A program made the translations under genes and the position numbers. 64,000 nt of DNA from Flectonema sp. DT1601 (lineage: Eukaryota). The DNA is taken from contig OZ025786.1 in NCBI GenBank assembly GCA_964019425.1, positions 186,001 through 250,000 on the forward strand. The letters are read 5' to 3'. Shown here in pieces: positions 2,016-22,811 of the stretch. The notes beneath the pieces are model-generated. The model worked only from the letters and a program-made list of their open reading frames with translations, was not told the origin of the DNA and made no database searches. Position 1 is the stretch's first letter, and every line of letters starts with the position of its first letter.

Positions 2016-2056
2016 TAGTCGATCGATAGAAAAAAAACAATGATAACATTGTTTAT

Positions 2057-2089
<33 letters not shown>

Positions 2090-2346
2090 CTTTTAATTAT
2101 TTTAAAGAAAAAACAATCAGTTTAGCGTCTTGACCAGGACGGAAAATAGAAAGTAATCGACATAGTCGATCGATAAAAAAAAAACAATGATAACATTGTT
2201 TATTCCTTTTTTTTTTTTTTTTTTTTTTTTGTTCTTTTCATTTATTTTTAAAGAAAAAACAATCAGTTTAGCGTCCTGACCAGGACGGAAAATTGAAAGT
2301 GATCGACATAGTCGATCGATAAAAAAACAATGATAACATTGATTAA

Positions 2347-2381
<35 letters not shown>

Positions 2382-4232
2382 TTTTAATTATTTTTTAAAG
2401 AAAAAACAATCAGTTTAGCGTCTTGACCAGGACGGAAAATAGAAAGTGATCGACATAGTCGATCGATAAAAAAACAATGATAACATTGTTTATTCTTTTT
2501 TTTTTTTTAAATTCTTTTTATTTATTTTTAAAGAAAAAAAAACGGAAAATAAAAATTAGTCGACAAAGTCGAACGATAAAAAAAAAACAATGATAACATT
2601 GTTTATTCTTTTTGTTTTTGTTTTTTTTTATATTCTTTTTTATTAATTTTGAAAAAAAAACAATCAGTTTAGCGTCTTGACCAGGACGGAAAATAGAAAG
2701 TAATCGACATAGTCGATCAATGAAAAAAAAACAATGATAACATTGTTTATTCTTTTTTTTTTTTTTTTTTTTTAAATTCTTTTTATTTATTTTTTAAAAA
2801 GAAAAAAAAAAAAACGGAAAATAGAAATTAGTCAACAAAGTCGAACAATAAAAAAAAAAAAACAATGATAACATTGTTTATTCTTTTTTTTTTATTTTTT
2901 TTTTATATTCTTTTTTATTAATTTTGAAAAAAAAACAATCAGTTTAGCGTCTTGACCAGGACGGAAAATAGAAAGTGATCGACATAGTCGATCGATAAAA
3001 AAAACAATGATAACATTGTATATTCTTTTTTTTTTATTTTTTTTTGTATTCTTTTTTATTAATAAAACAATCAGTTTAGCGTCTTGACCAGGACGGAAAA
3101 TAGAAAGTGATCGACATAGTCGATCGATAAAAAAAACAATGATAACATTGTTTATTCTTTTTTTTTTTTTTTTTTTTTTTTTAATCCTTTTTATTATTTT
3201 AAAGAAAAAACAATCAGTTTAGCGTCTTGACCAGGACGGAAAATAGAAAGTAATCGACATAGTCGATCGATAAAATAAAAACAATGATAACATTGTTTAT
3301 TCCTTTTTTCTTTTTTTTTTTATTCTTTTTATTTATTTTTAAAGAAAAAACAATCAGTTTAGCGTCCTGACCAGGACGAAAAATAGAAAGTGATCGACAT
3401 AGTCGATCGATAAAAAAACAATGATAACATTGTTTATTCTTTTTTTTTTTGTTTTTTTTTTTTTTTATTCTTTTTATTTATTTTTTAAAGAAAAAACAAT
3501 CAGTTTAGCGTCTTGACCAGGACGGAAAATAGAAATTAGTCGACAAGGTCGATCGATAACAAAACAATGATAACATTGTTTATTCTTTTTTTTTTTTTTT
3601 TTTTTTTTTTTATTCTTTTTATTTATTTAGAAAAAACAATCAGTTTAGCGTCTTGACCAGGACGGAAAATAGAAATTAGTCGACAAAGTCGATCGATAAA
3701 AAAACAATGATAACATTGTTTATTCTTTTTTTTTTAAAATTCTTTTTATTTATTTTTTAAAGGAAAAAAAAAACGGAAAATAGAAATTAGTCGACATAGT
3801 CGATCGATAAAAAAACAATGATAATATTGTTTATTCTTTTTTTTTTTTTTTTTTTTAAATTCTTTTTATTTATTTTTTAAAGAAAAAAATGGAAAATAGA
3901 AAATAGTCAACAAAGTCGATCGATAAAAAAAAACAATGATAACATTGTTTATTCTATTTTTTTTTTTTTTTTTTTTTTCTATTCTTTTTTATTAATTTTG
4001 AAAAAAAAAAACAATCAGTTTAGCGTCTTGACCAGGACGGAAAATAGAAAGTAATCGACATAGTCGATCGATAAAAAAAACAATGATAACATTGTTTATT
4101 CTTTTTTTTTATTTTAAATTCTTTTTATTTATTTTTAAAGAAAAGAAACGGAAAATAGAAATTAGTCCGATAAAAAAAAACAATGATAACATTGTTTATT
4201 CTTTTTTTTATTTTTTTTTTTATATTCTTTTT

Positions 4233-5407
4233 GCTCCTTAAAAGCTGCTAAGTGTTTCTGCTAAGTGTTTCTCACTTAGAATTTTATTTTTATGTTCGTT
4301 TTCTATCCCTTCTCCTATCCCTTTTGTTCAAAATAAGCGGGAGGAAATTCTCTCATTCACGCTAAGATGCACTCTGAACTTTGATTTTTTGATCTGAGTG
4401 TGAGGGAATGACCTGTTAGTGCATTGGGCATAGGCTGGGCTGCAGTTTAGATGTCTTAGGTGTTAATAGGGGGTTCCTCTTAGCATTTTTCTTTGTTCCC
4501 ACCTTATGATTTTCTTGAAGAAAAAAAATAGAAGTCATAATGGTGCTTCCCTCTGGAAGGGTTGTAAGCCATGGTGTCCAACTAATTTAAAGGACAAGTC
4601 TGGGATAATCCCTGCCAGAGGGGCGAGTATTCTACCATGGTTGAAATACTCTGGCAACTGATCTTCAATTTTATGTTGTTTGTTAGCTGCTGGTGTATCT
4701 TGATTATGTGTTGATACTTGCATTTTTTTTATTTGTAATCTTCTATTACAATCCTCTTTCTGTTCTGGTCTGTTACCTCATTTGTCTTGTTTAACTTCAG
4801 TTATATCCATTTTACTTTTTATTGTTTCCCATCTACTTTTTATTTTCTATTAGTTCTGGTCAGAAACTCCTGGGCAGCAAGAAGGAAAGTAGTTAAGTAC
4901 TTCTGGGTGTTTGGCATCACCCCCCATAGTGAGCAAGTACAACAGGTAGCATTGGTAGTCTGTTGATCCTGAGTGATCCCAGCTACAGTTTTGTTTTTCT
5001 TTCTTTTTTTTAGAAGAAGATCAGGACATCCAAGCACTGCTGGATAGTTGCTGAATGCAGGGCCTGCCTGTGGCATTATAATAACAGGCTAAGTCATTTG
5101 TAGTTCATAGTTTACCTTTGATTTTATAACTTCACACAGGGTACTATGAACGATGAGAGATCCAGTGGGATCACTCAGGGTCTAGTAGAGACCACCAATG
5201 TTGTGCGTTGATAGGCAAGGTGACCAACCTTGACATTCTTTCTTTTCTCTCCTGTTGTGACAAACACAAAATACACACACAGCTTACAGTGTGTTCTTTG
5301 TGTATGTTTTCTTCAGGTGTGAGTAGTTTTTCTGTTCTTGCTCTTCAGGGAGGGCCTTAGCCAAAAGCTAACAGTCCAAATCTCACCTGGTAATTCAACT
5401 CAGACCC
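4233..5407. mobile_element. Unclassified 1.17-kb insertion in the satellite
   Basis: Satellite TATATTCTTTTT|TTATTAATTTTG resumes in register on both sides; no TIR, no clear TSD, no recognisable ORF; strongly CpG-poor. Confidence 0.6.
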
Positions 5408-6560
5408 TTATTAATTTTGAAAAAAAAAAAACAATCAGTTTAGCGTCTTGACCAGGACGGAAAATAGAAATTAGTCGACAAAGTCGAACGATAAAAAAAA
5501 ACAATGATAACATTGTTTATTCTTTTTTTTTATTTTAAATTCTTTTTATTTATTTTTAAAGAAAAGAAACGGAAAATAGAAATTAGTCCGATAAAAAAAA
5601 ACAATGATAACATTGTTTATTCTTTTTTTTATTTTTTTTTTTATATTCTTTTTTATTAATTTTGAAAAAAAAAAAACAATCAGTTTAGCGTCTTGACCAG
5701 GACGGAAAATAGAAATTAGTCGACAAAGTCGAACGATAAAAAAAAACAATGATAACATTGTTTATTCTTTTTTTTTTTTTTTTTTTTTTTATATTCTTTT
5801 TTATTAATTTTGAAAAAAAAAAAAAAAAAAAAATCAGTTTAGCGTCTTGACCAGGACGGAAAATAGAAAGTAATCGACATAGTCGATCGATAAAAAAACA
5901 ATGATAACATTGTTTATTCTTTTTTTTTTTAAAATTCTTTTTATTTATTTTTTAAAGGAAAAAAAAAACGGAAAATAGAAATTAGTCGACAAAGTCGAAC
6001 GATAAAAAAACAATGATAACATTGTTTATTCTTTTTTTTTTTTTTTATTTCTTTTTATTTATTAAAAAAAAAACAATCAGTTTAGCGTCTTGACCAGGAC
6101 GGAAAATAGAAAGTGATCGACATAGTCGATCGATAAAAAAACAATGATAACATTGTTTATTCTTTTTTTTTATTTTAAATTCTTTTTATTTATTTTTTAA
6201 AGAAAAAAAACGGAAAATAGAAATTAGTCGACAAAGTCGAACGAAAAAACAATGATAACATTGTTTATTCTTTTTTTTATTTTTTTTTTTATTCTTTTTT
6301 ATTAATTTTGAAAAAAAAAAAAACAATCAGTTTAGCGTCTGGACCAGGACGGAAAATAGAAAGTAATCGACATAGTCGATCGATAAAAAAAACAATGATA
6401 ACATTGTTTATTCTTTTTTTTTATTTTAAATTCTTTTTTTTTATTTTTGGGAAAACCCCTAATTCCACAAAAATAGTTTGCGAAATCGCCAACTCATCAC
6501 AAAAAAAAAACGTCCCACCCCGATATGAATAAAAAGAGGGAAAAAACTTTCTTTTACAGC

Positions 6561-6793: not shown

Positions 6794-8701
6794 TCAGTCA
6801 GAATCTGTCGTTGAAGTTGAGTAAGATGAGTAGGATGAGTAGGATGACTGTGCACTTAAAGATTGTGAGTCCGAATCAGAGGATTCACATCGCTTTCGCT
6901 TCTTCTTGACTGTCTTTGCTGCTGGCTTTGCTGCTACTTTCTTTGCTGCTGGCTTTGCTGCTGGCTTTGCTGCTGGCTTTGCTGCTGGCTTTGATGATTG
7001 CGAGGTTGGTTTCCGACAACTTCGTTTGTTGTGACCTTTAGCGTCGCAGTTGGAGCACGTCAGGGTCCTTGATTCACCGTTGGAGCGAATCCGAACCTTT
7101 CTTCTTCTCCCGACACCCTTCTGCACAACAGGGGGTTTCGTGCCGTCGAATTGAAGCTGTCCGGTAGGTATCGCCTGTGGGTACACAGAGACGCGGTAGA
7201 GCTCTCTGTAGCTGCTCATTCTGGTGTAGGGAGGCAAAGAGGTTTCGTGAGTAAAGACATTATTGCGCTGATGTGTCAATACTCTGACTGTGTGGATGCA
7301 AGGTAGGTTGTGGCGGAGGAAATCAGGACAGCCACACACTAATGTTCCATCTTTCAGACACACCAACCACCCGTGTTCTCGTCGTACTTCCCATTGTCCT
7401 TCACCCAGTGGTGTGACAGCATGGTTGTTTGCTGAGGTGGCACTCCCCCGAACGAACAACTCCACTGTCGGAACCGGATAGTTCGCAGGAACGTCAGCAT
7501 GCATCTCGCGTCGGCTGGCGTAGGTGTCCGTTGTCCAACAACGGGTGTCCTTTATCACAGATAAAAGACTCCCTTGCCGAGTCTCCTTGAACACGGCGTT
7601 GACGCATTCCGACGCGTTGGAGGTGTAGGTGTTGCATCTGGGGACACCCGAAGGCCAGTAAGCGTCTGACCACCTTTCAAGGTTTGACTTAAGCAGATAA
7701 CGATGGGCACGTTTTCCGTACTTGTCCTTTATCCCTTGAAGGCACGTCTCGGCCTCTGTTTCGATGCTTAGCTTGCTAATCTTCCACACTAACAACGTCG
7801 CATCAACCTTCGGTATCTTCGTCTGGCTGGCCACGTTGCCAACCAAGTGCTGCACGCACAAAGCATGGTGCAACACGACTCCGTGCAGGGAGGTGTCGGA
7901 CTCCAGCCCCTTCTGCCTGTCGGAAATCAAGACGAACCTTTTCAGTCGGTCGCCAAAATGGTTCTTCAGGTGGGTGTGGTGGTATGCCCATCCCTCGTGG
8001 TTTTCGACCACTCCAACCGAGTAGGCTAAAGGCATAACATGCCTTTCGGCGTCGATCCCCACGGTGATGAACAAGCACCCACCAAACGGACCCGTCAGAC
8101 TGCATGCATCGCTGCAGATGACAGGTGCCAGGTGCTCAGCTGTTTCTGGCCTCACAAAAGACCAAAACACCCTCTCAAAAGCACCATCATCTCTCTTCTC
8201 GATGTTCCAGTACATCTGGCTGTTGCGCTGTTGGAGGTCGGTGAGGTACGGTGCTATCAGGCCGTACTGCTCGCCCATCAACCCGTGGACCTTCTCCTTG
8301 GCCTTCTCCAGACCCCTCTCCACAGTCTTTTTGGGGACCGCAACGTCGCGGAATGACTTTAAGTCAATTGCCGCTTGTTTCGGCCCGTAGTCAAACTGAC
8401 TGGCTACCTTCTCTTCCAAAATACTGGAAATCCAGTCCGACGTGCCATCGCAGCCCCGCCTCGCTTCCCCAGGTGCGCAAGTGTGACTCTCCACCTTCGT
8501 CACGCGGCACTCCCCCTCCACCACCTTTGCCTTCACCGTCCATTGGCATTCGTCGTTTGGACAGGCGAGGGTGAGGTACGTGGGGCACCTTCTCTGCACC
8601 CTGCAGCTGTGTCCTAGCACAGTGTTCACCCGAAACACAGTCTGGATCAGTTCTTCCTGTGTGCGGAAGTAGTCTCCAACAGCATAAGTAGTAGCAGGCA
8701 T
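6794..8701 (-). CDS. MuDR/MULE transposase, 635 aa, intronless
   Basis: DDE motifs VICSDAC, LISDRQKGL, CVQH, TSNASECVN; SWIM finger CGC...LPCIH; CCHC knuckle CSNCDAKGHNKRSC; KPAA-repeat tail. Confidence 0.95.
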   Translation of the reverse strand: MPATTYAVGDYFRTQEELIQTVFRVNTVLGHSCRVQRRCPTYLTLACPNDECQWTVKAKVVEGECRVTKVESHTCAPGEARRGCDGTSDWISSILEEKVASQFDYGPKQAAIDLKSFRDVAVPKKTVERGLEKAKEKVHGLMGEQYGLIAPYLTDLQQRNSQMYWNIEKRDDGAFERVFWSFVRPETAEHLAPVICSDACSLTGPFGGCLFITVGIDAERHVMPLAYSVGVVENHEGWAYHHTHLKNHFGDRLKRFVLISDRQKGLESDTSLHGVVLHHALCVQHLVGNVASQTKIPKVDATLLVWKISKLSIETEAETCLQGIKDKYGKRAHRYLLKSNLERWSDAYWPSGVPRCNTYTSNASECVNAVFKETRQGSLLSVIKDTRCWTTDTYASRREMHADVPANYPVPTVELFVRGSATSANNHAVTPLGEGQWEVRREHGWLVCLKDGTLVCGCPDFLRHNLPCIHTVRVLTHQRNNVFTHETSLPPYTRMSSYRELYRVSVYPQAIPTGQLQFDGTKPPVVQKGVGRRRKVRIRSNGESRTLTCSNCDAKGHNKRSCRKPTSQSSKPAAKPAAKPAAKPAAKKVAAKPAAKTVKKKRKRCESSDSDSQSLSAQSSYSSYSSYSTSTTDSD

Positions 8702-9185: not shown

Positions 9186-12100
9186 GAGATTTTTGCTATT
9201 GGGGGGTCCAATAATTCCATTTTCGCTATTCAGTAAAAGAATTTTTTTTTTTTTCGCTGTTCACTGAATATGATAATTTTTTTTCGCTATTCACTGAAAG
9301 TGATAATTTTTTTTCTCTATTCAGTAACAAAAAAAAAAAAAATTTCGCTGTTCATGAAAAAAAAAAAAAAAAAAAAAATTCAAAAAAAAAAAAAAAAAAA
9401 AAAAAAATGACACTTTTTTTGCCACCAAAATATCCTTGAACATTTTCATACAAATCTGTGAATAAATGAATTGGTAACGGGTTGGTTAGTATTATGAACT
9501 TGATTGATTACTGTAACCTAATTTTCACTTTCGGTTTCTGTTTCTGATTCGCTTTCTACTTTTATTTTCTTTCTTGCCTTCAAGGCCGGCTTCTTCGATT
9601 TCTTTGGCGATGCCTTCTTCGCAGCTGATTGCTTAGCTGCTGCCTTCTTAGCCGCAGGTTTCGGATGGTTTGCCTCCGAGAGGGGCTCTTTGCAGGTAGT
9701 GGAGTAGTGTCCAAACCCCTGACAACGCGTACATTGTCTGCCTCCCTCTCCCTGAGACTTTATTCTCTTCTTTGGGGCACCAATTCCTCTCTGCGTTAAT
9801 GGTGGGAGGAGATCTGTTTTCAACCTCTCAATGAGGTAAACCCCAACTGGGCGGATCGGGGTGGCATACGCATTCCTGAGTGCACCATGTGTAAACTCCC
9901 TACTGACAGTGGACAGAGGGTTTATTTTTAGTGTCCTGTTTTTTGTTTTAAGGCTACATTCAAAATCATATACTGGGGAAGGTTGCAGCATACCTCAAAA
10001 AAGCACATGCATGGACACAGGGGACGCCTGTCTGTTCAGGCACCAAACAGGCGCACGTCACAATTTTTTCATTCGCGATGACCTTCACCAGGCGGGTACT
10101 TTCTCCCTTAATTACTGAAGCTGTGGGGATTACAATACAATATTAGTTTGAATGTTTTTGCAAGAGAGAGTTATAGGAATACCTTCATATACCTCCCCTA
10201 ACTTACTTACAGGTATTACATCGTAACGTGAGGCTTCGGCGTTAAGCGCCTCCACCTTGTCCTGCACGTGCTGTAGTACTCCGTCGTCGTTGCCTGTATC
10301 TTCCATGTGCCGTTCATAGAACCAACGAGAAAGCTGGCCTAGTAACCCGTTTAACAGGCCGAGGATGCTTTTCGCCCTTATCTTTGATAAGGAGGCGTTA
10401 AAGCTCTCCGCCAGGTTGGACGTTGTATGTCCATAATTCCGTGCTCTTATCTGGCACGTTGCCCATGATGTTGGGTCTTTCCCCTTCAGGTACTCCTGAA
10501 ATTCAGGATCGAGGGTGTCGAACACTTCCTCGTACCTCTCTTCCGATGACGTCATTCGAAGTTTCTTAAACTTCGACACGGCTTCCTTACTTTTGAAGGC
10601 AACCTTTATGTTGCGTTCCATGTGGGCTGAACACTTCAACCCCTTGGCCTGTGGGAACGACTTTTTCATCGCTGTGTCGAGGCCTTTCTGCTGGTCTGAC
10701 ATCAGTGCATACCCGTTGAAAAAATCTTCACCAAGCGTGCTGCGACACTTGTCAAAAAACCATCCCCAGGTTTTTTTGCTCTCGTTTCCTGTGATGGCAA
10801 AGGCAACTGGGAACTCTCGCCCAGAAGCATCCATGCCCAACAACGTTAGAAAATTCCCGACGTAGTACCCTTTCAGGGAGCACCCATCGGTCACCCCAAA
10901 ACCTTGGGGACAATGTTTTGCCCCGTCAATGCAGGGACCAAAGGCGAGGAACAAATGACAAAATCGTCCGTCCTTGTCCGCAATGTGCCACTTAGTCCCA
11001 GGGTTTGCCACCTCCGCTGCGCGGCACCACGACTCTAAGAATTTGTACCCGTCGTGGGGATCCCCGTTGATCTCCCTATCCGCCTTCTGCAGCGCGCGAT
11101 AGGCGGTGTCCTTCTTTATCACGACCCCCTTCTCCTTCATGTCTGCGATTAAACACGCCGCGGTGTATTTCTCTCCTAGAGACCTATGTTTAGTGTTGTG
11201 GCAAAAACTAATAGTAACCAACCAGACAATTATGAGGCAGGCAGGCATACCTACACTTTTCAGCAGCAAGGTATGAGACAGTATTCTTCATACCGTAGGA
11301 GCTGCTTTCTCCAACAGCACACGTGCTGTCGTGCCGAAGAACCACACGCGTTATGTGGTAGCAACCTTCGTCTGTTGCTGTGGCACATACTTTCCACCCA
11401 CATGCGTTTGTGCACGTGAATGTCACCCTTTTCCCCACTACGTGGCTTGTCTTAAACCCCCTTCCCGAAGAACAAGAAGCGAGGGTTACCCTCGCACGAA
11501 GTGCGTCAAAGGATTGAAAGGTTCCCTCAATACTAGGTCTTGTGTCAGCCAAAGCTGAGGCAGGCTGAGTTTCAGTGGCAGCAGGTTGAGTTTCAACTAT
11601 GTTTCCGGGCATCTTAGAGATTGAGAATAAGAGTTTGTAGTAAAAGAGTAAAAGCCTAGAGAGAAAGAAAAACGTTTATGATTAGGAACTTGTACGTTTT
11701 ACTGAACGAAGCATCGTAGGCGACCAGTTTCCTTCGAGAATCCGCAGATGGTGCAGGGCTAAACCGAGATGAGGAAGATAACACCCGCACACGGATGTTG
11801 AGATAACGTTTGTATGATGTTCATCTGGCTTGACGAGATTAGCAAAGACAAGTACTCACGGAAAGGTTGGGTTGTTCGTCAGGTCCTGATAGTGTGCTCA
11901 GCCTCTGAAAAATTTACTGAGTGCATGCAAAGAACGGTATGTGTGCAGGGCTGGGTCACCTTACAGAGAACTGTTGTCCTCTTACACGTCATTCCAACCG
12001 AATTTCAAAGTCAAGACACCTGCGAGTTACAGACAGCCTGGTCGCAAGCGACACTCCTGTTTCTGACCGGGTTATCAGGGTATCTAACTCATGCAAGCAT

Positions 12101-14836: not shown

Positions 14837-16865
14837 TATAATTACGGTAAGAAGTACACTCGCAACAACCTCGATGCCATCAAGAACAACAGTGAGACAA
14901 CGATGCTCATATCGTTCAAGTTCAAACGAGGTGAGTACATGGATCGCATCAAAGTATGTGTAAAGGATAGTCTTCAGCTGATCCCATCATCGCTTGATAC
15001 ATTGTTGAAGAACCTGCCGAACAACCACAAACCTAGGATGACAGCCTTCATGTCTAAGAAGCTTGCAGATGCTGGTGCTGAAGTAAATGAGGAGAACCTA
15101 AGCTTACTCCTATCTAAAGGTGCGTTCCCATACACATGGTTTAAGAATCACAAGAGGTTAAGTGCCAAGGAGTTGCCTCCAAAGAAAGAATGGTATGACA
15201 CACTTAGCGATAAGCACATCAGCAGGGAGACGTTCGCCAAGGCAAAGAAGATATGGAGCATGCTGAAGATGAAGTCCTTCAAAGACTATCACGATCTATA
15301 TCTGGCAGGGGATGCATTGGGATTGGCTGATGTGATGGACAACTACCGCAACACATTTATAGCCTCTCATAGACTCGATCCAGTCTACTATGTTTCACTG
15401 AGCAGTTACAGTTGGGATGCGATGCTCCTGAATACCAACGTCCAACTAGACTTGATATCTGACCCAGACATGTATGCATTCTTCGAAGATCAGAAGCGAG
15501 GTGGTCTAACAATGGCTGTTCAAAGGCATGTAAAGGCAAACATCCCAAACACTGCAGACTTCAACAAGGACAAGGACCCAAGCTATCTTTGGTACACAGA
15601 TGCAAACAACCTGTATGGTTGGGCGATGATGAAGTTCTTGCCCTATGCAAACTTCCAGTGGGTGAAGGACACCTCATTTGTAACCCCAGAGTTCATAAGG
15701 AGCTATGATGATCAACAGTCAACAGGATATGCTATAGAGGTTGACCTAGAGTATCCTGAGTCGTTGCACAAGGACCACTGGGACTTCCCACTCGCCCCAT
15801 ACAACAGATCAGTAGACTATGACGAACTGTCTCCATATCAGAAGGGTGAGCTGGGTTGCAAGAAGGACAAGGCTGGTCATAAGAAGTTGATATGCGACTT
15901 CAATCCAAGAGTCAAACAGATCTACAATATCGAGTACCTGTCGTTCCTGTTAGATCACGGTTTGGTGCTGAAGAAAGTTCATCGCATTGTCAGCTATGAT
16001 CAGAAGGCTTGGCTTAGACAGTACATTGAGTTGAATACAGGGTTTAGACAGCAGGCTAAGAATGAATTTGAGAAGGACCTATATAAGTTACTGAACAACG
16101 CAGTCTATGGCAAGACACTGGAGAACGTTCGTGGTAGAGCTTCATGTAAGATAGTTGAGAACGACTATGACAAATTAGTAAAGGAACAATCTCACTATGC
16201 ATTCAAGTTCAGTAGAGTTGACATTGGTAACTTCTGCATGTTGGATATGCACAAGCGGAGCGTAACCCTCAACAAGCCTGTATATGCTGGTAGTCAGATC
16301 TTAGACTACAGCAAACAACTTATGACAGGCTTCTTCTATGACAAACTAATCCCACACTATGGACGGGACAACATATCACTCGTCTATACTGACACAGACA
16401 GCTTCATTCTACACATCAAGACAGATGACCTACATAAGTCACTGGAAGGTATCAAGGATGAACTGGACACCTGCAACTACCCAGAGGACCACTTCCTGTT
16501 CTCAAACAAACAAGAAGGTTGCGGGGTACTTCAAGGATGAGACAGATGGCAAACTGATCAGTGAAGGTATCTTCCTAAGAGCCAAGACATATGCTTACAC
16601 ATTAGTTGATGAAGCCCAAACACATGTAAAAGCTAAGGGAGTTCCAAGATCCAAGTCTGCAAAGTTTAAATTAGATGACTTCTCTAACACTCTTGAGACT
16701 GGTGAGAGTAAGTCTGTGACCTACAACTCCATAACCAGTAAGAGTACAAGACTAATGACAAAAGAGTTCCAACGTGTTGCATTAAGTAGATATGATGACA
16801 AGCGATACATCTGCCCTGATGGCAAGAGGACCCTTGCATATGGTAGCATTGAGATCCCGAAGTAA
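14837..16865 (+). pseudogene. Protein-primed family B DNA polymerase (Polinton/Maverick-adintovirus type), 5'-truncated, one frameshift near 16505
   Basis: KGAFPY, YL..D...LAD (ExoIII), LDP.YY, RGG, YTDANNLYGWAM, KLLNNAVYGKT, YTDTDS; the +1 frame continues KKVAGYFKDE, LRAKTYAY, KAKGV, DDKRYI..TLAYG. ExoI/II are missing because of an in-frame stop at 14834. Confidence 0.92.
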
Positions 16866-17101
16866 CTTTACCTGCATATCCATACTATTATTTAAATCAA
16901 TTATTTCTCCACAGGAACCTAACACATATTTAAACACAAGTCAAGTGATGTAAGCCAAACACCAGCTTCAGTTCTCAAGTAAGACAGGATGGAATGCCTT
17001 TTTTCTGTTACAATTTCATGGCTCAGTAATAAATTTGTGCAGTTTCTTACCTCAACATATATTCACAGTTAAACCCCATCCTCTATTTGCTTCTTTTAAA
17101 A

Positions 17102-18493
17102 ATGACGAAGAAGAAGGCTGTAAAAAAGGCAGCAAAGAAAACTGGGAAGAAGTCTGTAAGCAGCAGCAGCAGCAGTTCTACCAGTCACAAGGAAATGACT
17201 CCGAAACAAAAACCGAAAGCTACATCAGGTAGTCCACCCTCACCAAAGTCATCATTGAAGAAGGAAAAGAAGGCGAGAGGTAGTGATGATAATGAACCAG
17301 GTGAATATGACTTGAGGAAGGTACAATGGAATCTGGTTGTTGATGCAGAGAAAATGATCAAAGACAAAGAGGCAGATCTGAAGAAAGCTAATGACAAGTT
17401 GAATGAGTGTGTAGCTAAAGATGATTTCAAATCGAATGCATACAAGCATTGGAAAGAGCAAATAAAGAAACTGGAGGCTAGCATTAAGAGACTCGAAGGC
17501 CGAGAGGCAAGTTACCGTAAGAGTGCAGAGAATGAACAAGCGAGGAGGGTGAACACATCTTCAAGGGGATTTATGTTAAAGGGTACTGTGCCAGATGGTT
17601 TCAGCTATGGGAAGTACAAGGGGAATCTCTACAAATCTGCCGCGAACTTGCAGGGATATTCAATGAAGTGTGAATATGAAAAGACTGGAATAAGCGATTT
17701 AGCACCTGAAGGTCAATTAACAAGCAACAGCAACCTTAACGTCGAACTCTACTTCGAAACCAAGGAGAGGGCAGTGGACATGTGCAACAAGTGGGAAAAG
17801 CACCACAAACGGTTTGACCTGAATGAGATGAAACCTGTTCGTTTTGAACTTCAAGAAGCTCCTGAAGATTTCAATTTCGACTTCAATCAAAGGGTGAAGG
17901 AGAGAGATTACGACGATCAGGACACACCGAAGCGGACCTTTGCAGTAACAGAGGCACAGCAGACAGAGAGTATCCCCTCACACACCAGGGTAACCAAGGA
18001 ACAGGTCGAATACGAATCGCTGATGGACCACAGTAACGATCAGTTTTACGCCCTCAAATCATGTCACATATTAGAGAAGAGAGCGTGCAAAGGAAATAAG
18101 GCCTATGCTGACAACGATCCTGCAAACCGCCTTTTCATGAATGGAGACCTACACTCGATGTATGATGAACTTAACCTGTTGTCTGTTACCAGTGAACAAA
18201 CGAAATTCAAAAAAAACGATGACCAACGTTGCCCTGTAACCTTGCATCTTTATTTCAAGACACCAGAGCTTGCAATCCAGTACTTTTCGTGCTTACGCTC
18301 TCCAACACTGTCAGCTATTAATTCATGTGTCATTGCAGTTACAATAACTCATACAAAACCATCAGATTTTGTGAAATATCTGGTTGAACGGCATAACCGC
18401 AATATGCAAAACATGCAAGTAAGTGACAGTGTCAGTGTAAACAGCCAGCAAAATCTTGATGGTTGTGAGGAAGAAGGAACAGAAGAAAATTAA
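17102..18493 (+). CDS. Crinkler (CRN/CR)-like protein with C-terminal HNH-type nuclease domain, K/A/S-rich N-terminus and coiled coil (463 aa from first ATG)
   Basis: SCHIL...D..NRLFMNGDLHSMYD fits the HNH_2-type pattern (xHI...N.L.....H..[YF]D); flanking segments recall oomycete CRN C-terminal domains (from memory). Confidence 0.65.
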   Translation: MTKKKAVKKAAKKTGKKSVSSSSSSSTSHKEMTPKQKPKATSGSPPSPKSSLKKEKKARGSDDNEPGEYDLRKVQWNLVVDAEKMIKDKEADLKKANDKLNECVAKDDFKSNAYKHWKEQIKKLEASIKRLEGREASYRKSAENEQARRVNTSSRGFMLKGTVPDGFSYGKYKGNLYKSAANLQGYSMKCEYEKTGISDLAPEGQLTSNSNLNVELYFETKERAVDMCNKWEKHHKRFDLNEMKPVRFELQEAPEDFNFDFNQRVKERDYDDQDTPKRTFAVTEAQQTESIPSHTRVTKEQVEYESLMDHSNDQFYALKSCHILEKRACKGNKAYADNDPANRLFMNGDLHSMYDELNLLSVTSEQTKFKKNDDQRCPVTLHLYFKTPELAIQYFSCLRSPTLSAINSCVIAVTITHTKPSDFVKYLVERHNRNMQNMQVSDSVSVNSQQNLDGCEEEGTEEN

Positions 18494-18710
18494 AGTAGTG
18501 ACTAGTAGGTTTACAGTTGGTAAAGGAATACTTGCATAGACATAGTATACTAGTACTTTTTATTAGGTAGAGAACTTTCTTCCGCTGACAGATTCTTCAG
18601 TCTGTCAGCTATCTTTAGTGAGCCATCTGTTTAACAATTTGACATGGACGCTGCTTGGTGCATTGTTTGATTAAGTCTTTTTTCTCACTCAGTTGCAATT
18701 CTTTGAGAAG

Positions 18711-19690
18711 AACAGAACAGAACAGAACAGAACAGAACAGAACAGAACAGAACAGAACAGAACAGAACAGAACAGAACAGAACAGAACAGAACAGAACAG
18801 AACAGAACAGAACAGAACAGAACAGAACAGAACAGAACAGAACAGAACAGAACAGAACAGAACAGAACAGAACAGAACAGAACAGAACAGAACAGAACAG
18901 AACAGAACAGAACAGAACAGAACAGAACAGAACAGAACAGAACAGAACAGAACAGAACAGAACAGAACAGAACAGAACAGAACAGAACAGAACAGAACAG
19001 AACAGAACAGAACAGAACAGAACAGAACAGAACAGAACAGAACAGAACAGAACAGAACAGAACAGAACAGAACAGAACAGAACAGAACAGAACAGAACAG
19101 AACAGAACAGAACAGAACAGAACAGAACAGAACAGAACAGAACAGAACAGAACAGAACAGAACAGAACAGAACAGAACAGAACAGAACAGAACAGAACAG
19201 AACAGAACAGAACAGAACAGAACAGAACAGAACAGAACAGAACAGAACAGAACAGAACAGAACAGAACAGAACAGAACAGAACAGAACAGAACAGAACAG
19301 AACAGAACAGAACAGAACAGAACAGAACAGAACAGAACAGAACAGAACAGAACAGAACAGAACAGAACAGAACAGAACAGAACAGAACAGAACAGAACAG
19401 AACAGAACAGAACAGAACAGAACAGAACAGAACAGAACAGAACAGAACAGAACAGAACAGAACAGAACAGAACAGAACAGAACAGAACAGAACAGAACAG
19501 AACAGAACAGAACAGAACAGAACAGAACAGAACAGAACAGAACAGAACAGAACAGAACAGAACAGAACAGAACAGAACAGAACAGAACAGAACAGAACAG
19601 AACAGAACAGAACAGAACAGAACAGAACAGAACAGAACAGAACAGAACAGAACAGAACAGAACAGAACAGAACAGAACAGAACAGAACAG
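18711..19690. repeat. Perfect (AACAG)196 microsatellite
   Basis: 980 bp with no interruption seen. Confidence 0.98.
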
Positions 19691-19820
19691 TCTGAACGAG
19701 AATGAGCCCCTCAGTGATTAAACTCACCGCACACGCGATGCGCCGGTCCAAAGTCCGGAACCTCACCACAAGCGATGGTAAGGAAGGGTGATGGGTCACT
19801 GGGCACAAGCGATGCCCATT
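19691..19820 (-). mobile_element. Probable structured 3' end of a LINE/SINE whose tail is the (CTGTT)n tract
   Basis: GC-rich segment abutting the microsatellite; three stem-loops share the loop UCGC(U/G)UG on the minus strand. Confidence 0.55.
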
Positions 19821-19928
19821 TAGTTGTCAAAGTGACATGACGTATGGCAAACTGAACAGGTTTGACATCGCACAGCACACCAGCACCAACGGTACCATCT
19901 GGATATCACTCACTTTTTTCACTAGAAT

Positions 19929-20080
19929 TCACACATTTTCACACATTTTCACACATTTTCACACATTTTCACACATTTTCACAGGATTTCACTACCAGAA
20001 AGCAGCAAAAAATTAAGTGAAATATCGTGAAAAATCGTGAAAAATCGTGAATTTTCGTGTAGCAAAGTGAAAAATCGTGA
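19929..20080. repeat. (TCACACATTT)x5 followed by AAAATCGTGA-like repeats
   Basis: 10-bp tandem units; TTTTCAC and GTGAAAA cores are in inverted orientation, like transposon subterminal repeats. Confidence 0.7.
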
Positions 20081-20585
20081 ACACCTCCACCCTGCCGATC
20101 GCCTCATTCCACCATCCCTACATCAAACATCAGGAGAAGGTCTTCTCGGTGGAGAATGCGGATGGGCAGCGCTCAACTTCATTGCAGATCATTTATATAT
20201 CGATAGAATTAACTTCAGTTTTCTGCAAAACTACCAACAGCGATTTTATGAAGAATCTCTTAAAGTAGAACCGAACAACTCAGAGCATAAACCATCACCA
20301 GATGGTTGGTTCTCGCTACAAGTACTAAACATGGCTTGCATGACTAAATTCAACAGGAGAATCGAGTACTTCGTTAACCCAGCAGATTTCGAATATCCTG
20401 ATACAGTCGCAGCACTTATTCTGCATAAAGCGAAAACAAGGATGACTCACTTTATTGTTGCGCTAGTCTCATTTGAGTCCATGATCATCCGAGACATTCT
20501 TAAAGGCACAAAAGATTTAAGACTCCCTTTCGATCATTTTGACAAGATGTACCAAACTACGGATACCATTAAAAGCTCAGACTGA
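20080..20585 (+). pseudogene. Josephin/ataxin-3-like cysteine protease domain fragment (no ATG start), probably from a retroelement
   Basis: HQ...ECGWAALN (catalytic Cys), DGWFSLQVL (cf. GFFSIQV), ALIL.....THFI (His), IRDIL (Asp) in Josephin order. Confidence 0.6.
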
Positions 20586-20813
20586 TATGGATGTTACAAT
20601 GACACCTGCGAATATAGGACCTTTGATGATATGCGAAGATAAAATAAAACGGAAATTGGATGACGACTCAACCATTAACTCGACTGTAATAGTGAAACGA
20701 CCAGACATCAAAAATTCAAATTGAGCAAAAGCAAATAAACATTGCTAGCCCTATCCTGGCGAGCTCCGATGGATTTTTATCTTTGAACGATAGCAACTTC
20801 AACATAGAATGAA

Positions 20814-20881
20814 GTCCCTTAGAACTTACTGATGAAGGCCTAAAAAGGGACAAGTAGTATAAGATTAAGGCCTGAAACTAC
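20814..20881 (+). ncRNA. Hammerhead ribozyme, non-circularly permuted (pseudoknotted) strand order
   Basis: CUGAUGA 20829-35; stem II AGGCCU 20836-41/20868-73; GAAA 20874-77; stem III ACUAC 20877-81/GUAGU 20854-58; cleavage nucleotide A20859; stem I CUUA 20825-28/UAAG 20860-63; extra stem GUCCCUU 20814-20/AAGGGAC 20845-51. Confidence 0.7.
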
Positions 20882-21028
20882 ATATTCTATTACCCTTTGA
20901 TGTTAGGAAACTGCAGAAATGAATACTTTTCTTTTATTAATCTCTACTTTTCTTATTCTCACTTTTCTGTTCTAAAATTAATGATACTAACATGTCTTTC
21001 TAGCTTGCATTTTACTACTTCTGTAGTA

Positions 21029-22398
21029 CTGTAACTGTAAATAACATGGTGTATAAAAAATTTGGAGTATAACAACTTTGGATATAAAAAAGATGGTGGA
21101 TTCTTGGAAAAAAAACTTGGTGGATTTTTATAAAAAAGTATGAAAGTACACATTTTGACTGTAAAATGGTAGTTTTTTGAGTATGAAATTTTTCTGTAGG
21201 CAATCACACTATGCACAAATTTTTGAAAAAACGGGAGCCTTTTGAACCCCTGAAGACGTCGGTGAGCAAGGTGGAGCTGGATTTGATAAGGCAAGAGCAG
21301 AGGGTGAAAGAGCAACCAACTTCTCGCTGTTATGAGAAGTGGTCAAGGGAGGAGTTGCTTAACATCGGTGAGATGGTGAACTCTGCCACCAATGTGTCAA
21401 AGGCCATTGCCTTCTTCAACAAGGACCATAAGAAGAGATTAACAGTTGGCACGGCAGGCAGGGCAATGAAGCTCTTTACTGTGGAAGACGAAGGGAGAAC
21501 CACTAAAAGAAGGGCAGGTAAAATCTGGGAGACCCACCATCTTAACCACTGATGAGGAAGCAAGGGTGCTCGATTTAATTGAGAATATCCGTGCTTATGG
21601 TGGCTGTGTGTTTGCTTCTCTGGTTTCAAGCACAGCAAGGGGGATAGTGCTTGCAAGTGATACACCGGAATGTGTGGATTCTAGTTCCCTACAAGAAGTA
21701 TGGGCCTACAAGTTCCTGGTACGGAAGGGTTGGACACACCGTCGTGGAACCACTGCGAAAGTAGCGCCTGAAGCAGAACTTACATCAGCTCGGTCAAGGT
21801 TTCTAGAACGCATCTCCAGTGCTCGAATACATGGTTCAATTCCTGACAGCATGGTCATTAACTTTGACCACACCCAGTGCCTGATGCTTCCATCAAGCAA
21901 GTGCACCTTCAATGCCAAAGGTGCCAAGTCGGTGCCGATATCATTCACCTGATAAGCGGGGCGTCAGCGTAGTACTGGGTTGCTCGATGACAGGGGACAT
22001 GCTCCCAATGCAGGTCATCTACAAGGGAAAGACGGCTAGATCGACTCCACACAGCCGCCCTTGTCTCGAACACCGAAATGATGTGCTGTTAACCAGTAAT
22101 CTAAGAGGGTGGGCAAACGAAACAACAACCATTGAGTACCTTCAGAAGGCAATAGTCCCATACTTTATTAAAAAACGCCAGGAACTGGGACTTGAATCGG
22201 ATCACCCTGGCCTGTATATGACCAGTTTAAAAAAAAAAGGTCAAAAAAAAATTTTTTTTTTTTTGGAATCCGAATTTTGCTAAGTGTTTGTTGTGAATAA
22301 TTGTACTAAAAAAACTTTGGATATAATAAAGATGGTGGATTTGGCCATTTTTTGGCGATTTGGAGACTTTTTATACACCATGATATTTATAGTTACAG
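21029..22398 (+). mobile_element. pogo/Tigger-like DNA transposon, internally deleted
   Basis: 31-bp TIRs CTGTAACT(G/A)TAAATA(A/T)CATGGTGTATAAAAA; TA at 21027-28 and 22399-400; internal direct repeat AACTTTGGATATAA.AAAGATGGTGGATT near both ends. Confidence 0.9.
21211..22215 (+). pseudogene. pogo-family (DDE_1) transposase, frameshifted and 3'-truncated
   Basis: Three ORF pieces: HTH-like N-terminus, W...FL.R.GW..RRGTT, INFDHT, DKR.VSVVL...MTG.MLPMQVIYKGKT, WANETT...Y....IVPY; breaks off just before the second catalytic Asp. Confidence 0.85.
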
Positions 22399-22811
22399 TA
22401 TAATTATTTAGTGAATTTATGGATATCTCCTCCTTTAGTGACATTTTTTTAATCCAGGTAGGGAAAATGTGTGTTAAGGCAAGTATGGCGAAAAATCATG
22501 CTCAGTGTTGATTGTAATAAGTAATGATTTGCCTGTCATATCAAAAAAAAACATATTTCTCTCCCAACAGTACACATAGTTGAATTATGAAATGTTATCT
22601 TTGTAGATACCAGGTTGCGCAAATATCGAAAAATCACGTCACTTAACAGCTTGAATGAGAAAAAACACACAAAAACCTGTAGTGGTGGATACTGGAAATA
22701 TTATAATTGGTGATTTTTTTTTCTTTCCACACTTTTTTTCCCCACAAAACCAAAAAAAATATCAAAAAAGTACAGAACCATACCAAAAATTAAAAAAATT
22801 TTTTTTTCAAA

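What the first reader, a model, noticed from the sequence alone, without database searches (positions are those of the whole stretch)
20814..20881. Hammerhead ribozyme with rearranged (non-circular) strand order, downstream of a Josephin-like ORF
Seen: every core nucleotide is present (CUGAUGA, GAAA, GUA cleavage triplet) and all three stems pair perfectly (I 4 bp, II 6 bp, III 5 bp). The substrate strand GUAGU-A-UAAG (20854-63) lies inside the loop of stem II. The strand order is therefore [I'-core-II], [III'-UH-I], [II'-GAAA-III], which is none of the circular types I/II/III. A fourth 7-bp stem (GUCCCUU/AAGGGAC) and 2-4 nt linkers fit the hammerhead geometry, with short links between the adjacent tips of stems I and II. 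Knowledge: hammerheads mark Penelope-like elements and retrozymes; I recall rare non-circularly permuted hammerheads being reported, and standard models would miss them. Inference: a retroelement family here uses a pseudoknotted hammerhead to process its RNA end.
Basis: partly seen in the sequence, partly recalled or inferred. Interest (0 to 1): 0.88.

Follow-up and report, generated by a model that had tools for sequence, protein, structure and literature searches.

The report
Rearranged hammerhead ribozyme in Penelope retroelement
The tail of a Penelope-type jumping gene in a protist holds a perfectly paired hammerhead-ribozyme motif whose three parts come in a rare scrambled order, which is predicted to cut the element's own RNA and suggests that a retroelement group reported to mostly lack such ribozymes likely carries them in a disguised form.

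Summary
20814-20881 has every hammerhead core base, stems I, II and III (4, 6, 5 bp) and a 7-bp extra helix, all Watson-Crick. No shuffled control gave such a motif. The block order C-S-G is the type-CSG permutation of Eckert et al. 2023, known there from two unique soil-metagenome sequences with no known host, both cleaving in vitro. The 'Josephin-like ORF' is the last ~210 residues (94% identical) of a 1350-aa Chlamys-type Penelope-like protein: GIY-YIG, CxC, DKG, RT, Josephin fold. The motif lies 89 nt after its stop, in a 5'-truncated copy; the named relatives are from diplonemids. Craig et al. 2021 reported that Naiad/Chlamys elements mostly lack canonical hammerheads. Reading their consensus file by eye, 7 of 54 Naiads (6 nematode, 1 spider; a lower bound) end in complete type-CSG hammerheads with different stem sequences, including 4 of their 8 unexplained 'half-core' cases. 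My paper searches found no report of this link. Cleavage is untested, covariation within this family was not seen, and the most similar published Chlamys family shows no hammerhead. New variant of a known kind.

The parts
20814..20881 (+). Type-CSG hammerhead ribozyme (blocks C, S, G plus helix P4 joining the stem I and stem II sides); predicted cleavage between A20859 and U20860
   Evidence: Sequence and pairing; topology compared with PMC10085705
20814..20851 (+). Helix P4, 7 bp (20814-20 with 20845-51), enclosing block C
   Evidence: six of its seven pairs form in the MFE fold
20825..20841 (+). Block C: stem I 5' strand, CUGAUGA core (G5 = 20831, G8 = 20834), stem II 5' strand (palindromic)
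20854..20863 (+). Block S: stem III strand, GUA triplet (20857-59), stem I 3' strand
20868..20881 (+). Block G: stem II 3' strand, GAAA, stem III strand
20107..20724 (+). 3' end of the Penelope-like ORF (about residues 1140-1350 of P0031, 94% identity): Josephin-fold domain with Cys, His and Asp at triad-like positions; frameshift from a 16-17-nt deletion near 20561; stop TGA 20722-24
   Evidence: tblastn; insertion seen in run X4; alignment; model and fold search
20107..20110 (+). 5' truncation junction with 4-nt microhomology: one X1 contig joins here from upstream element sequence, another follows the flank to 20110 and then leaves
   Evidence: tables 7 and 8; one contig each, depth 2-2.5
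20725..20991 (+). 3' UTR / presumed pLTR region that holds the ribozyme; the 3' end is not fixed (two contigs stop matching at 20887, others run to 20918-20991; a DNA-transposon inverted repeat begins at 21027)

Best explanation
20814-20881 is a type-CSG (non-circularly permuted, pseudoknotted) hammerhead motif in the 3' UTR of a 5'-truncated Chlamys-type Penelope-like retrotransposon copy, predicted to cut the element's transcript 3' of A20859 and so likely to trim read-through or tandem transcripts to unit length. Shown: the pairing, the topology, the position 89 nt after the ORF stop, and the protein architecture of intact relatives. Inferred, step by step: (1) on transcription the nested helices P4 and III form first, and stems I and II close across them as pseudoknots; (2) the standard core gives a 2',3'-cyclic phosphate end 135 nt after the stop and a 5'-OH product (hammerhead chemistry, from knowledge); (3) in partial tandems the 3' UTR of one copy is the pLTR and leader of the next, so one cut would set both ends of the RNA; (4) the GIY-YIG endonuclease and RT then insert it by target-primed reverse transcription, which here stopped early and left this truncated copy.
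For: Perfect core and four helices; null controls empty. Same order, helix set and size as CSG-1/2, which cleave at the predicted site at 0.004 and 0.026 per min (PMC10085705). Upstream DNA matches P0031 at 94%. P0031 has an N-terminal GIY-YIG without the two Cys zinc-finger motifs, CxC, DKG and RT; relatives hit GIY-YIG, RVT_1 and Josephin or UCH in Pfam. The domain model's best matches are Josephin-2 (Z 10.1, rmsd 2.9, 118 aligned) and an ataxin-3-family Josephin (Z 9.7). The family looks young: 15 listed of 59 cluster members are 94-99.7% identical to P0031. The ribozyme is a conserved island in other runs: a 1869-nt X2 contig aligns only at 20820-20887 (2 substitutions, 1 gap) plus a 21-nt piece upstream, and two short X3 contigs align only at 20820-20873 and 20821-20870 (X2 and X3 are one sample). 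A 709-nt metatranscriptome contig spans 20233-20918 with 42 substitutions, 38 of which are listed and all fall before 20804. By eye, 7 Naiad consensus ends in PMC8557442 File S5 hold full CSG folds with different sequences in every stem.
Against: No cleavage data. Compensatory changes within this family were not seen, because the letters of the related contigs are not in hand. The island matches start at 20820-21, so the 5' strand of P4 is not shown to be kept in them. One X2 contig has 2 extra letters in the stem II 3' strand behind 20871. Four of the 42 substitutions in the X4 contig are unplaced, and an RNA-library contig does not prove transcription. Stem I is 4 bp, three of them A-U (isolated duplex +0.3 kcal/mol), and pair 10.1-11.1 is A-U where CSG-1/2 have G-C. 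The nested MFE fold ties up the stem I 5' strand with core bases. No CSG fold was seen in the Chlamys passages displayed, including the whole 3' UTR of Chlamys-1_cBra, the published family that also carries a Josephin-like tail. In the Anolis PAc element cleavage needed the protein, was not needed for insertion in vitro, and RNA ends were not found at the site. Pattern scans of viral and metagenome contigs gave no further true CSG.
Confidence: 0.8

Rival explanations
1. The fold is real and conserved, but cleavage is slow, protein-dependent or incidental. The structure serves mainly as a binding or RT-initiation site, or is a passenger that the element does not need.
For: PAc hammerhead mutants insert normally in vitro and show no cleavage without protein (PMC11167929). 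Craig et al. note that Naiads proliferate without canonical hammerheads and that hammerheads may parasitise PLEs. Weak stem I and a competing nested fold. No core seen in the last ~500 nt of Naiad_Ppac and Naiad_Asuum, or in the Chlamys-1_cBra UTR.
Against: The catalytic bases and the NUH site, not only the helices, are intact here and in all 7 Naiad examples across nematodes and a spider.
Confidence: 0.12
2. The motif cleaves only as a dimer or in trans: the palindromic stem II strands let two copies exchange blocks and build a conventional three-way junction.
For: Both stem II strands are the same self-complementary hexamer. Minimal PLE hammerheads are proposed to act as dimers (PMC4209133).
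Against: CSG-1/2 cleave as single transcripts. Stem II is not palindromic in the 7 Naiad examples. P4 and the 2-4-nt linkers fit a monomer.
Confidence: 0.04
3. The ribozyme belongs to a separate small non-autonomous element (retrozyme-like) that sits in or beside the Penelope-like copy.
For: Contigs in X2 and X3 share the ribozyme but not the flanks. Animal retrozymes are reported as PLE-derived non-autonomous units (bioRxiv 10.64898/2026.07.22.740005; title and passages).
Against: A diverged contig (X4, 709 nt) runs continuously from the coding region through the ribozyme. No tandem repeat overlaps the ribozyme. Naiad consensus sequences carry the same fold after the ORF.
Confidence: 0.03
4. 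Chance arrangement of short motifs in AT-rich DNA.
For: Loose descriptors do give chance hits (4 in 20 shuffled windows), and one chance-looking CSG parse lies inside a 964-codon ORF among the pattern-scan loci (L069 = L084).
Against: 0 strict hits in 60 shuffled windows and in 20,000 shuffled 2-kb stretches; a fourth helix that the descriptor did not ask for; position in a retroelement 3' UTR; island conservation.
Confidence: 0.01

Closest known systems
Type-CSG hammerhead ribozymes CSG-1 and CSG-2 (Eckert et al. 2023, PMC10085705)
   Same: Block order C-S-G, full core, extra helix from the 5' end to the strand after stem II, 2-nt link into stem III, short link from stem I to stem II', about 66-68 nt.
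   Different: No shared stem sequences; stem I 4 bp instead of 6; A-U at 10.1-11.1; 4- and 3-nt linkers beside P4 where CSG-1/2 have none; GUA instead of GUC. It lies in a eukaryotic genome inside a retroelement, while CSG-1/2 came from soil metagenome DNA with no host or role. The two published RNAMotif CSG descriptors would miss it: they need G after the core, C before GAAA and at most 10 nt between stem II and stem III (12 here).
Chlamys Penelope-like elements, especially Chlamys-1_cBra of Chara braunii (Craig et al. 2021, PMC8557442)
   Same: N-terminal GIY-YIG without CCHH and CX2-5CxxC, CxC motif, DK motif, RT, C-terminal Josephin-like extension, 5' truncation.
   Different: The sections and family lists that I read name green-lineage and slime-mould hosts; named relatives here are diplonemids (Diplonema papillatum, Flectonema neradi, and an EukProt 'Rhum' entry that I read as Rhynchopus from recall). 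Chlamys are described with no hammerhead or a canonical type I; this one has type CSG.
Naiad elements with 'HHR_half_core' (Craig et al. 2021, Files S1 and S5)
   Same: Core in the 3' UTR with the second half 35-50 nt away (38 nt here). By eye 4 of the 8 flagged families are complete type-CSG folds.
   Different: Naiads are animal elements with zinc-finger motifs in the endonuclease and a DKA motif. Their CSG folds have longer P4 helices (9-16 bp) and G-C at 10.1-11.1.
Canonical type I and minimal hammerheads in pLTRs of Penelope/Poseidon, Neptune, Hydra, Athena and Coprina (Cervera and de la Pena 2014, PMC4209133)
   Same: Hammerhead core in the terminal repeat region of a PLE; presumed processing of precursor RNA.
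   Different: Those are three-way junctions in circular order, often dimer-dependent; this one is a doubly pseudoknotted fold with a full stem III, predicted to act as a monomer.

Membership tests
Hammerhead ribozyme, type CSG | CUGANGA flanked directly by stem I and stem II strands (block C) | tested here: met
Hammerhead ribozyme, type CSG | GAAA flanked by stem II and III strands, A15.1-U16.1 pair, UH cleavage site (blocks G, S) | tested here: met
   A20877-U20858, GUA at 20857-59
Hammerhead ribozyme, type CSG | 5'-to-3' order C, S, G | tested here: met
   definition
Hammerhead ribozyme, type CSG | Extra helix bringing stems I and II together | tested here: met
   P4, 7 bp; compare Supplementary Figure 10 text
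Hammerhead ribozyme, type CSG | Covariation of the stems among homologues | tested here: inconclusive
   No homologous loci were retrieved as sequence. Island conservation only. Different stems in 7 Naiads were read by eye; they are distant and not aligned.
Hammerhead ribozyme, type CSG | Site-specific self-cleavage lost in the G5 mutant | not testable with these tools
   Needs in vitro transcription
Chlamys (N-terminal EN+ Penelope-like elements) | GIY-YIG endonuclease N-terminal to RT in one ORF | tested here: met
   In intact family members, not in the truncated window copy: P0031 motif at 237, RT core about 838-965. Pfam GIY-YIG is weak for P0031 (E 0.15) and P0035 (E 0.007), and E 5.7e-5 for relative P0059.
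Chlamys (N-terminal EN+ Penelope-like elements) | CxC motif and DK(x) motif between EN and RT | tested here: met
   CxC at 560, DKG near 682
Chlamys (N-terminal EN+ Penelope-like elements) | No CX2-5CxxC linker and no CCHH in the endonuclease (separates Chlamys from Naiad) | tested here: met
   no CX2-5CxxC, no Cys within the GIY-YIG core; definition
Chlamys (N-terminal EN+ Penelope-like elements) | Insertion-in-fingers domain between RT3(A) and RT4(B) | tested here: inconclusive
   A-to-B distance 76 aa (62-90 in two other relatives); no canonical PLE was measured for comparison
Chlamys (N-terminal EN+ Penelope-like elements) | Placement in the Naiad/Chlamys clade on an RT tree | not tested
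   No reference Naiad or Chlamys proteins were available as fetched sequences
Chlamys (N-terminal EN+ Penelope-like elements) | Partial tandem insertions forming pLTRs; microsatellite insertion bias | tested here: inconclusive
   One truncated copy only; no genome held. The (AGAAC)196 array ends about 416 nt before the junction, so it is not shown to be the target.
Josephin (MJD) cysteine protease domain | Papain-like Josephin fold with Cys-His-Asn/Asp triad | tested here: met
   VIA-align Z 10.1 and 9.7 to Josephin structures, model pLDDT 73.7. A profile of the domain hits the Pfam-Josephin-bearing relatives at E about 1e-5 to 1e-8 in a 16-protein set. No direct Pfam Josephin hit; Foldseek E 0.17-0.18 at best for Josephin entries.
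Josephin (MJD) cysteine protease domain | Deubiquitinase activity | not testable with these tools
   Needs an assay

The most novel reading that the evidence does not exclude
Non-circularly permuted hammerheads are the usual ribozymes of the Naiad/Chlamys clade of Penelope-like elements, from diplonemid protists to nematodes and spiders. Type CSG, known from two orphan sequences, is then a common genomic ribozyme. A related undescribed form in cnidarian, ostracod and octopus Naiads, in which CUGANGA runs into an extra helix and the stem II strand lies upstream of block S, would be a further hammerhead architecture. The clade with permuted protein domains would also be the clade with permuted ribozymes.
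Probability: 0.6. Interest if true: 0.87.

Novelty: new variant of a known kind. Interest (0 to 1): 0.77.

Why it matters
Eckert et al. found type CSG in two unique sequences, called the evidence for its biological relevance weaker, and found none in a known organism's genome. This gives the type a host lineage, a genetic context and a likely job. It also offers an answer to a stated puzzle in Penelope biology: Naiad/Chlamys elements were said to thrive without canonical hammerheads, with eight unexplained 'half-core' cases. If the ribozymes were only invisible to circular-order descriptors, the hammerhead is close to universal in PLEs, and the high-copy Naiads become a large natural set for covariation, structure and the open question of how non-circular RNA permutations evolve. 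The tests are cheap: rescan published consensus files and transcribe 70-nt RNAs.

Tried and rejected
Rfam gathering scan: 0 hits. No whole genome is held, so copies could not be counted. Related loci by protein in viral contigs: none. Family-specific DNA pattern: 0 in viral and 0 in prokaryote genome contigs. Degenerate CSG patterns: 11 and 39 viral loci, 55 metagenome loci (some are the same contig or gene). Of 78 parses, 45 were printed; besides the window only L069 = L084 reached stems II and III of 4 bp or more, and L069 lies inside a 964-codon ORF, so I rejected it as chance. None of the 105 loci had a tblastn hit to the four element proteins used. These collections are mostly prokaryotic and the patterns fixed stem I, so this is no evidence of absence. 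Sequence search of PDB: nothing for the domain or the RT profile. Pfam 'Longin' hits are below cut-off and were ignored. The idea that the (AGAAC)n array is the insertion target was dropped: about 416 nt of other DNA lie between. A search for the putative empty-site continuation in the window gave only a 2-mismatch match at 7874-88, not followed up. ESM Atlas did not place the host below Eukaryota. Earlier scan notes: nothing by sequence or place; one unrelated coral note by words. Small-share runs X2-X4 were not used to name a habitat. By eye I could not resolve the ends of Naiad-3_Dst, Naiad_Esco and two further core-bearing passages in part 17 of the supplement.

Full report
Observation. 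The sequence at 20814-20881 is as described. CUGAUGA lies at 20829-35, GAAA at 20874-77 and the GUA triplet at 20857-59. Stems I (4 bp), II (6 bp), III (5 bp) and a fourth helix P4 (7 bp) are all Watson-Crick. A descriptor for all six block orders finds this motif alone on the two strands of the window. It finds nothing at strict, post hoc thresholds in 60 shuffled windows, and 4 hits, none CSG, at loose thresholds in 20. A strict CSG count was 0 in 20,000 shuffles of the surrounding 2 kb. Rfam misses it. The nested MFE fold (-17.9 kcal/mol, z -2.26, 6 of 200 shuffles as good) forms most of P4 and all of stem III, the two helices that do not cross; it also pairs the stem I 5' strand with core bases, a possible inactive form.

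What kind of ribozyme. Eckert et al. 2023 (PMC10085705; I read parts 1-6 of 8 of the text, which cover the main text, and supplement passages; no figures) divide the hammerhead into blocks C, S and G. The order here is CSG. They found two unique CSG sequences, in soil metagenome DNA; both cleaved at the predicted site (0.004 and 0.026 per min), both have the extra helix, and none lay in the genome of a known organism. Their two RNAMotif CSG descriptors demand G after the core, C before GAAA and at most 10 nt between stem II and stem III; this motif has A, U and 12 nt, so those descriptors would miss it.

What it sits in. Homology searches with the upstream reading frame returned proteins in which this domain follows a reverse transcriptase. 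The longest, P0031 (1350 aa), has a GIY-YIG motif at 237, CxC at 560, DKG near 682, the RT core and the domain at about 1140-1290. The window matches residues 1134-1292 and 1298-1350 at 94% with a frameshift near 20561, and nothing upstream. The true stop is 20722-24, so the ribozyme starts 89 nt downstream and the cut would fall 135 nt downstream. Contigs of run X1 mark the 5' truncation at 20107, with a 4-nt overlap with the flank (one contig each, low depth). The cluster has 59 members and a sister family 24; 15 listed members are 94-99.7% identical to P0031; one of them, P0021, is probably the window's own ORF and is not independent. Named relatives are from Diplonema papillatum and Flectonema neradi, so the host is probably a diplonemid; this is an inference from the element, and the host gene tested gave only 'Eukaryota'. 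The C-terminal domain folds (pLDDT 73.7) most like Josephin-2 and an ataxin-3-family Josephin (Z 10.1 and 9.7), though Foldseek E-values were not significant and Pfam gave no Josephin hit. Of 13 RT relatives, 6 carry a Pfam Josephin match (two below the curated cut-off) and 3 a UCH match. The architecture fits Chlamys as defined by Craig et al. 2021 (PMC8557442; I read passages, sections 6 and 9, and supplement parts 1 and 45 plus passages). No tree with reference elements was built.

Conservation. Four runs were laid on 19700-22400 (contigs only; X2 and X3 are one sample). A 1869-nt X2 contig aligns only at 20820-20887 and over 21 nt upstream; two X3 contigs align only at 20820-20873 and 20821-20870; an X1 contig leaves the window at 20887. 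A 709-nt contig of the metatranscriptome X4 spans 20233-20918 with 42 substitutions: the 38 listed all precede 20804, and 4 are not shown. Against this, one X2 contig has two extra letters in the stem II 3' strand, and the island matches do not include 20814-19. The letters of these contigs are not in hand, so covariation within the family stays open.

The wider link. Craig et al. state that Naiad and most Chlamys elements lack canonical hammerheads, and flag eight Naiads whose two core halves lie 35-50 nt apart; here the spacing is 38 nt. I looked up core motifs and record ends in their consensus file and paired the passages by eye; no program checked these pairings. Seven of the 54 listed Naiads end in a complete CSG fold (stems I/II/III/P4 in bp): Naiad_Parc 6/5/12/11, Naiad-1_Nbra 5/5/11/11, Naiad-2_Nbra 5/5/6/12, Naiad-3_Nbra 5/4/6/9, Naiad_Hcon 6/5/11/13, Naiad_Hpol 5/5/9/16, and the spider Naiad_Smim 4/5/11 with one mismatch/10, with a U after the core. 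That is 6 of 8 nematode families (no core in the last ~500 nt of Ppac and Asuum) and 4 of the 8 half-core families. It is a lower bound: eight core variants were looked up, 4 of 23 places of one of them were not displayed, and motifs broken by a line end are missed. The stems differ in sequence from family to family and from the window, yet pair. No CSG was seen in the Chlamys passages displayed, including the full 3' UTR of Chlamys-1_cBra. Several other Naiads show a different odd fold (see Noticed in passing).

Mechanism. Shown: pairing, order, position, element type. Inferred: cis cleavage after A20859 by standard hammerhead chemistry, with P4 and the 4-nt link between stems I and II doing the work of the loop I-II contact; release of unit-length RNA from tandem or read-through transcripts, as proposed for PLE hammerheads (PMC4209133, passages). 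The role is the least certain step: in the Anolis PAc element cleavage needed the protein and was not needed for insertion in vitro (PMC11167929, passages). Stem I is weak and 10.1-11.1 is A-U, so the rate may be low.

Novelty. The topology is known, the context is not, as far as the held library shows. Searches for non-circular permutation with hammerhead, type-CSG/SGC, Naiad with hammerhead, Naiad with Chlamys and ribozyme, Penelope-like with nematode and pseudoknot, non-circularly permuted with retrotransposon, and Diplonema with Penelope gave no paper that links CSG ribozymes to Penelope-like elements. Passages of bioRxiv 10.64898/2026.07.22.740005, PMC13159263 and PMC13725137 do not make the link; the supplement of the preprint was not seen, and subscription journals are largely outside the library. 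Other listed papers were seen as search listings only. Verdict: a real feature, a new member of type CSG, and a new variant of the PLE-hammerhead association; interest 0.77.

Noticed in passing
PMC8557442 File S5: ends of Naiad_Amil, Naiad_Aacu, Naiad_Anas, Naiad-2_Movir, Naiad_Ovul, and unassigned passages in parts 12 and 19: A different rearranged hammerhead, read by eye: order [X'][hairpin][stem II strand] S G C-core [X]. CUGANGA is followed not by stem II but by an extra helix X, and the stem II 5' strand lies upstream of block S. In Ovul the X helix and hairpin were not resolved. It breaks the assumption that block C cannot be interrupted; I did not see it described in the papers read.
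   Followed up: partly
Proteins P0059-P0071, P0013: Chlamys-like RTs related to this family carry a C-terminal deubiquitinase-like domain of either Josephin or UCH type, and a diplonemid non-LTR element with AP endonuclease and RT (P0013) carries the same Josephin-like domain at its N-terminus: a swappable protease module.
   Followed up: partly
window 14903-16865 (+): B-family DNA polymerase (Pfam DNA_pol_B_2, E 5.9e-10) split over two overlapping frames; Polinton-like remnant (label from recall). Followed by a 468-aa ORF at 17087-18493 with no significant Pfam match.
   Followed up: no
window 18709-19690: Perfect (AGAAC) array, 196 copies, 100% matches.
   Followed up: no
window 21027-22400: DNA transposon remnant: 33-bp terminal inverted repeats at 94% around three short ORFs, one with a DDE_1 match (E 3e-4); it lies just after the retroelement's 3' end.
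   Followed up: partly
window 6794-8701 and 10130-11269 (-), with ~110-150-bp tandem repeats at 2016-6448: Two MULE transposase ORFs among long AT-rich tandem arrays.
   Followed up: no
window about 20754-20774: A 21-nt stretch in the 3' UTR is shared with the X2 contig that otherwise matches only the ribozyme (joint table): a possible second conserved cis element.
   Followed up: no
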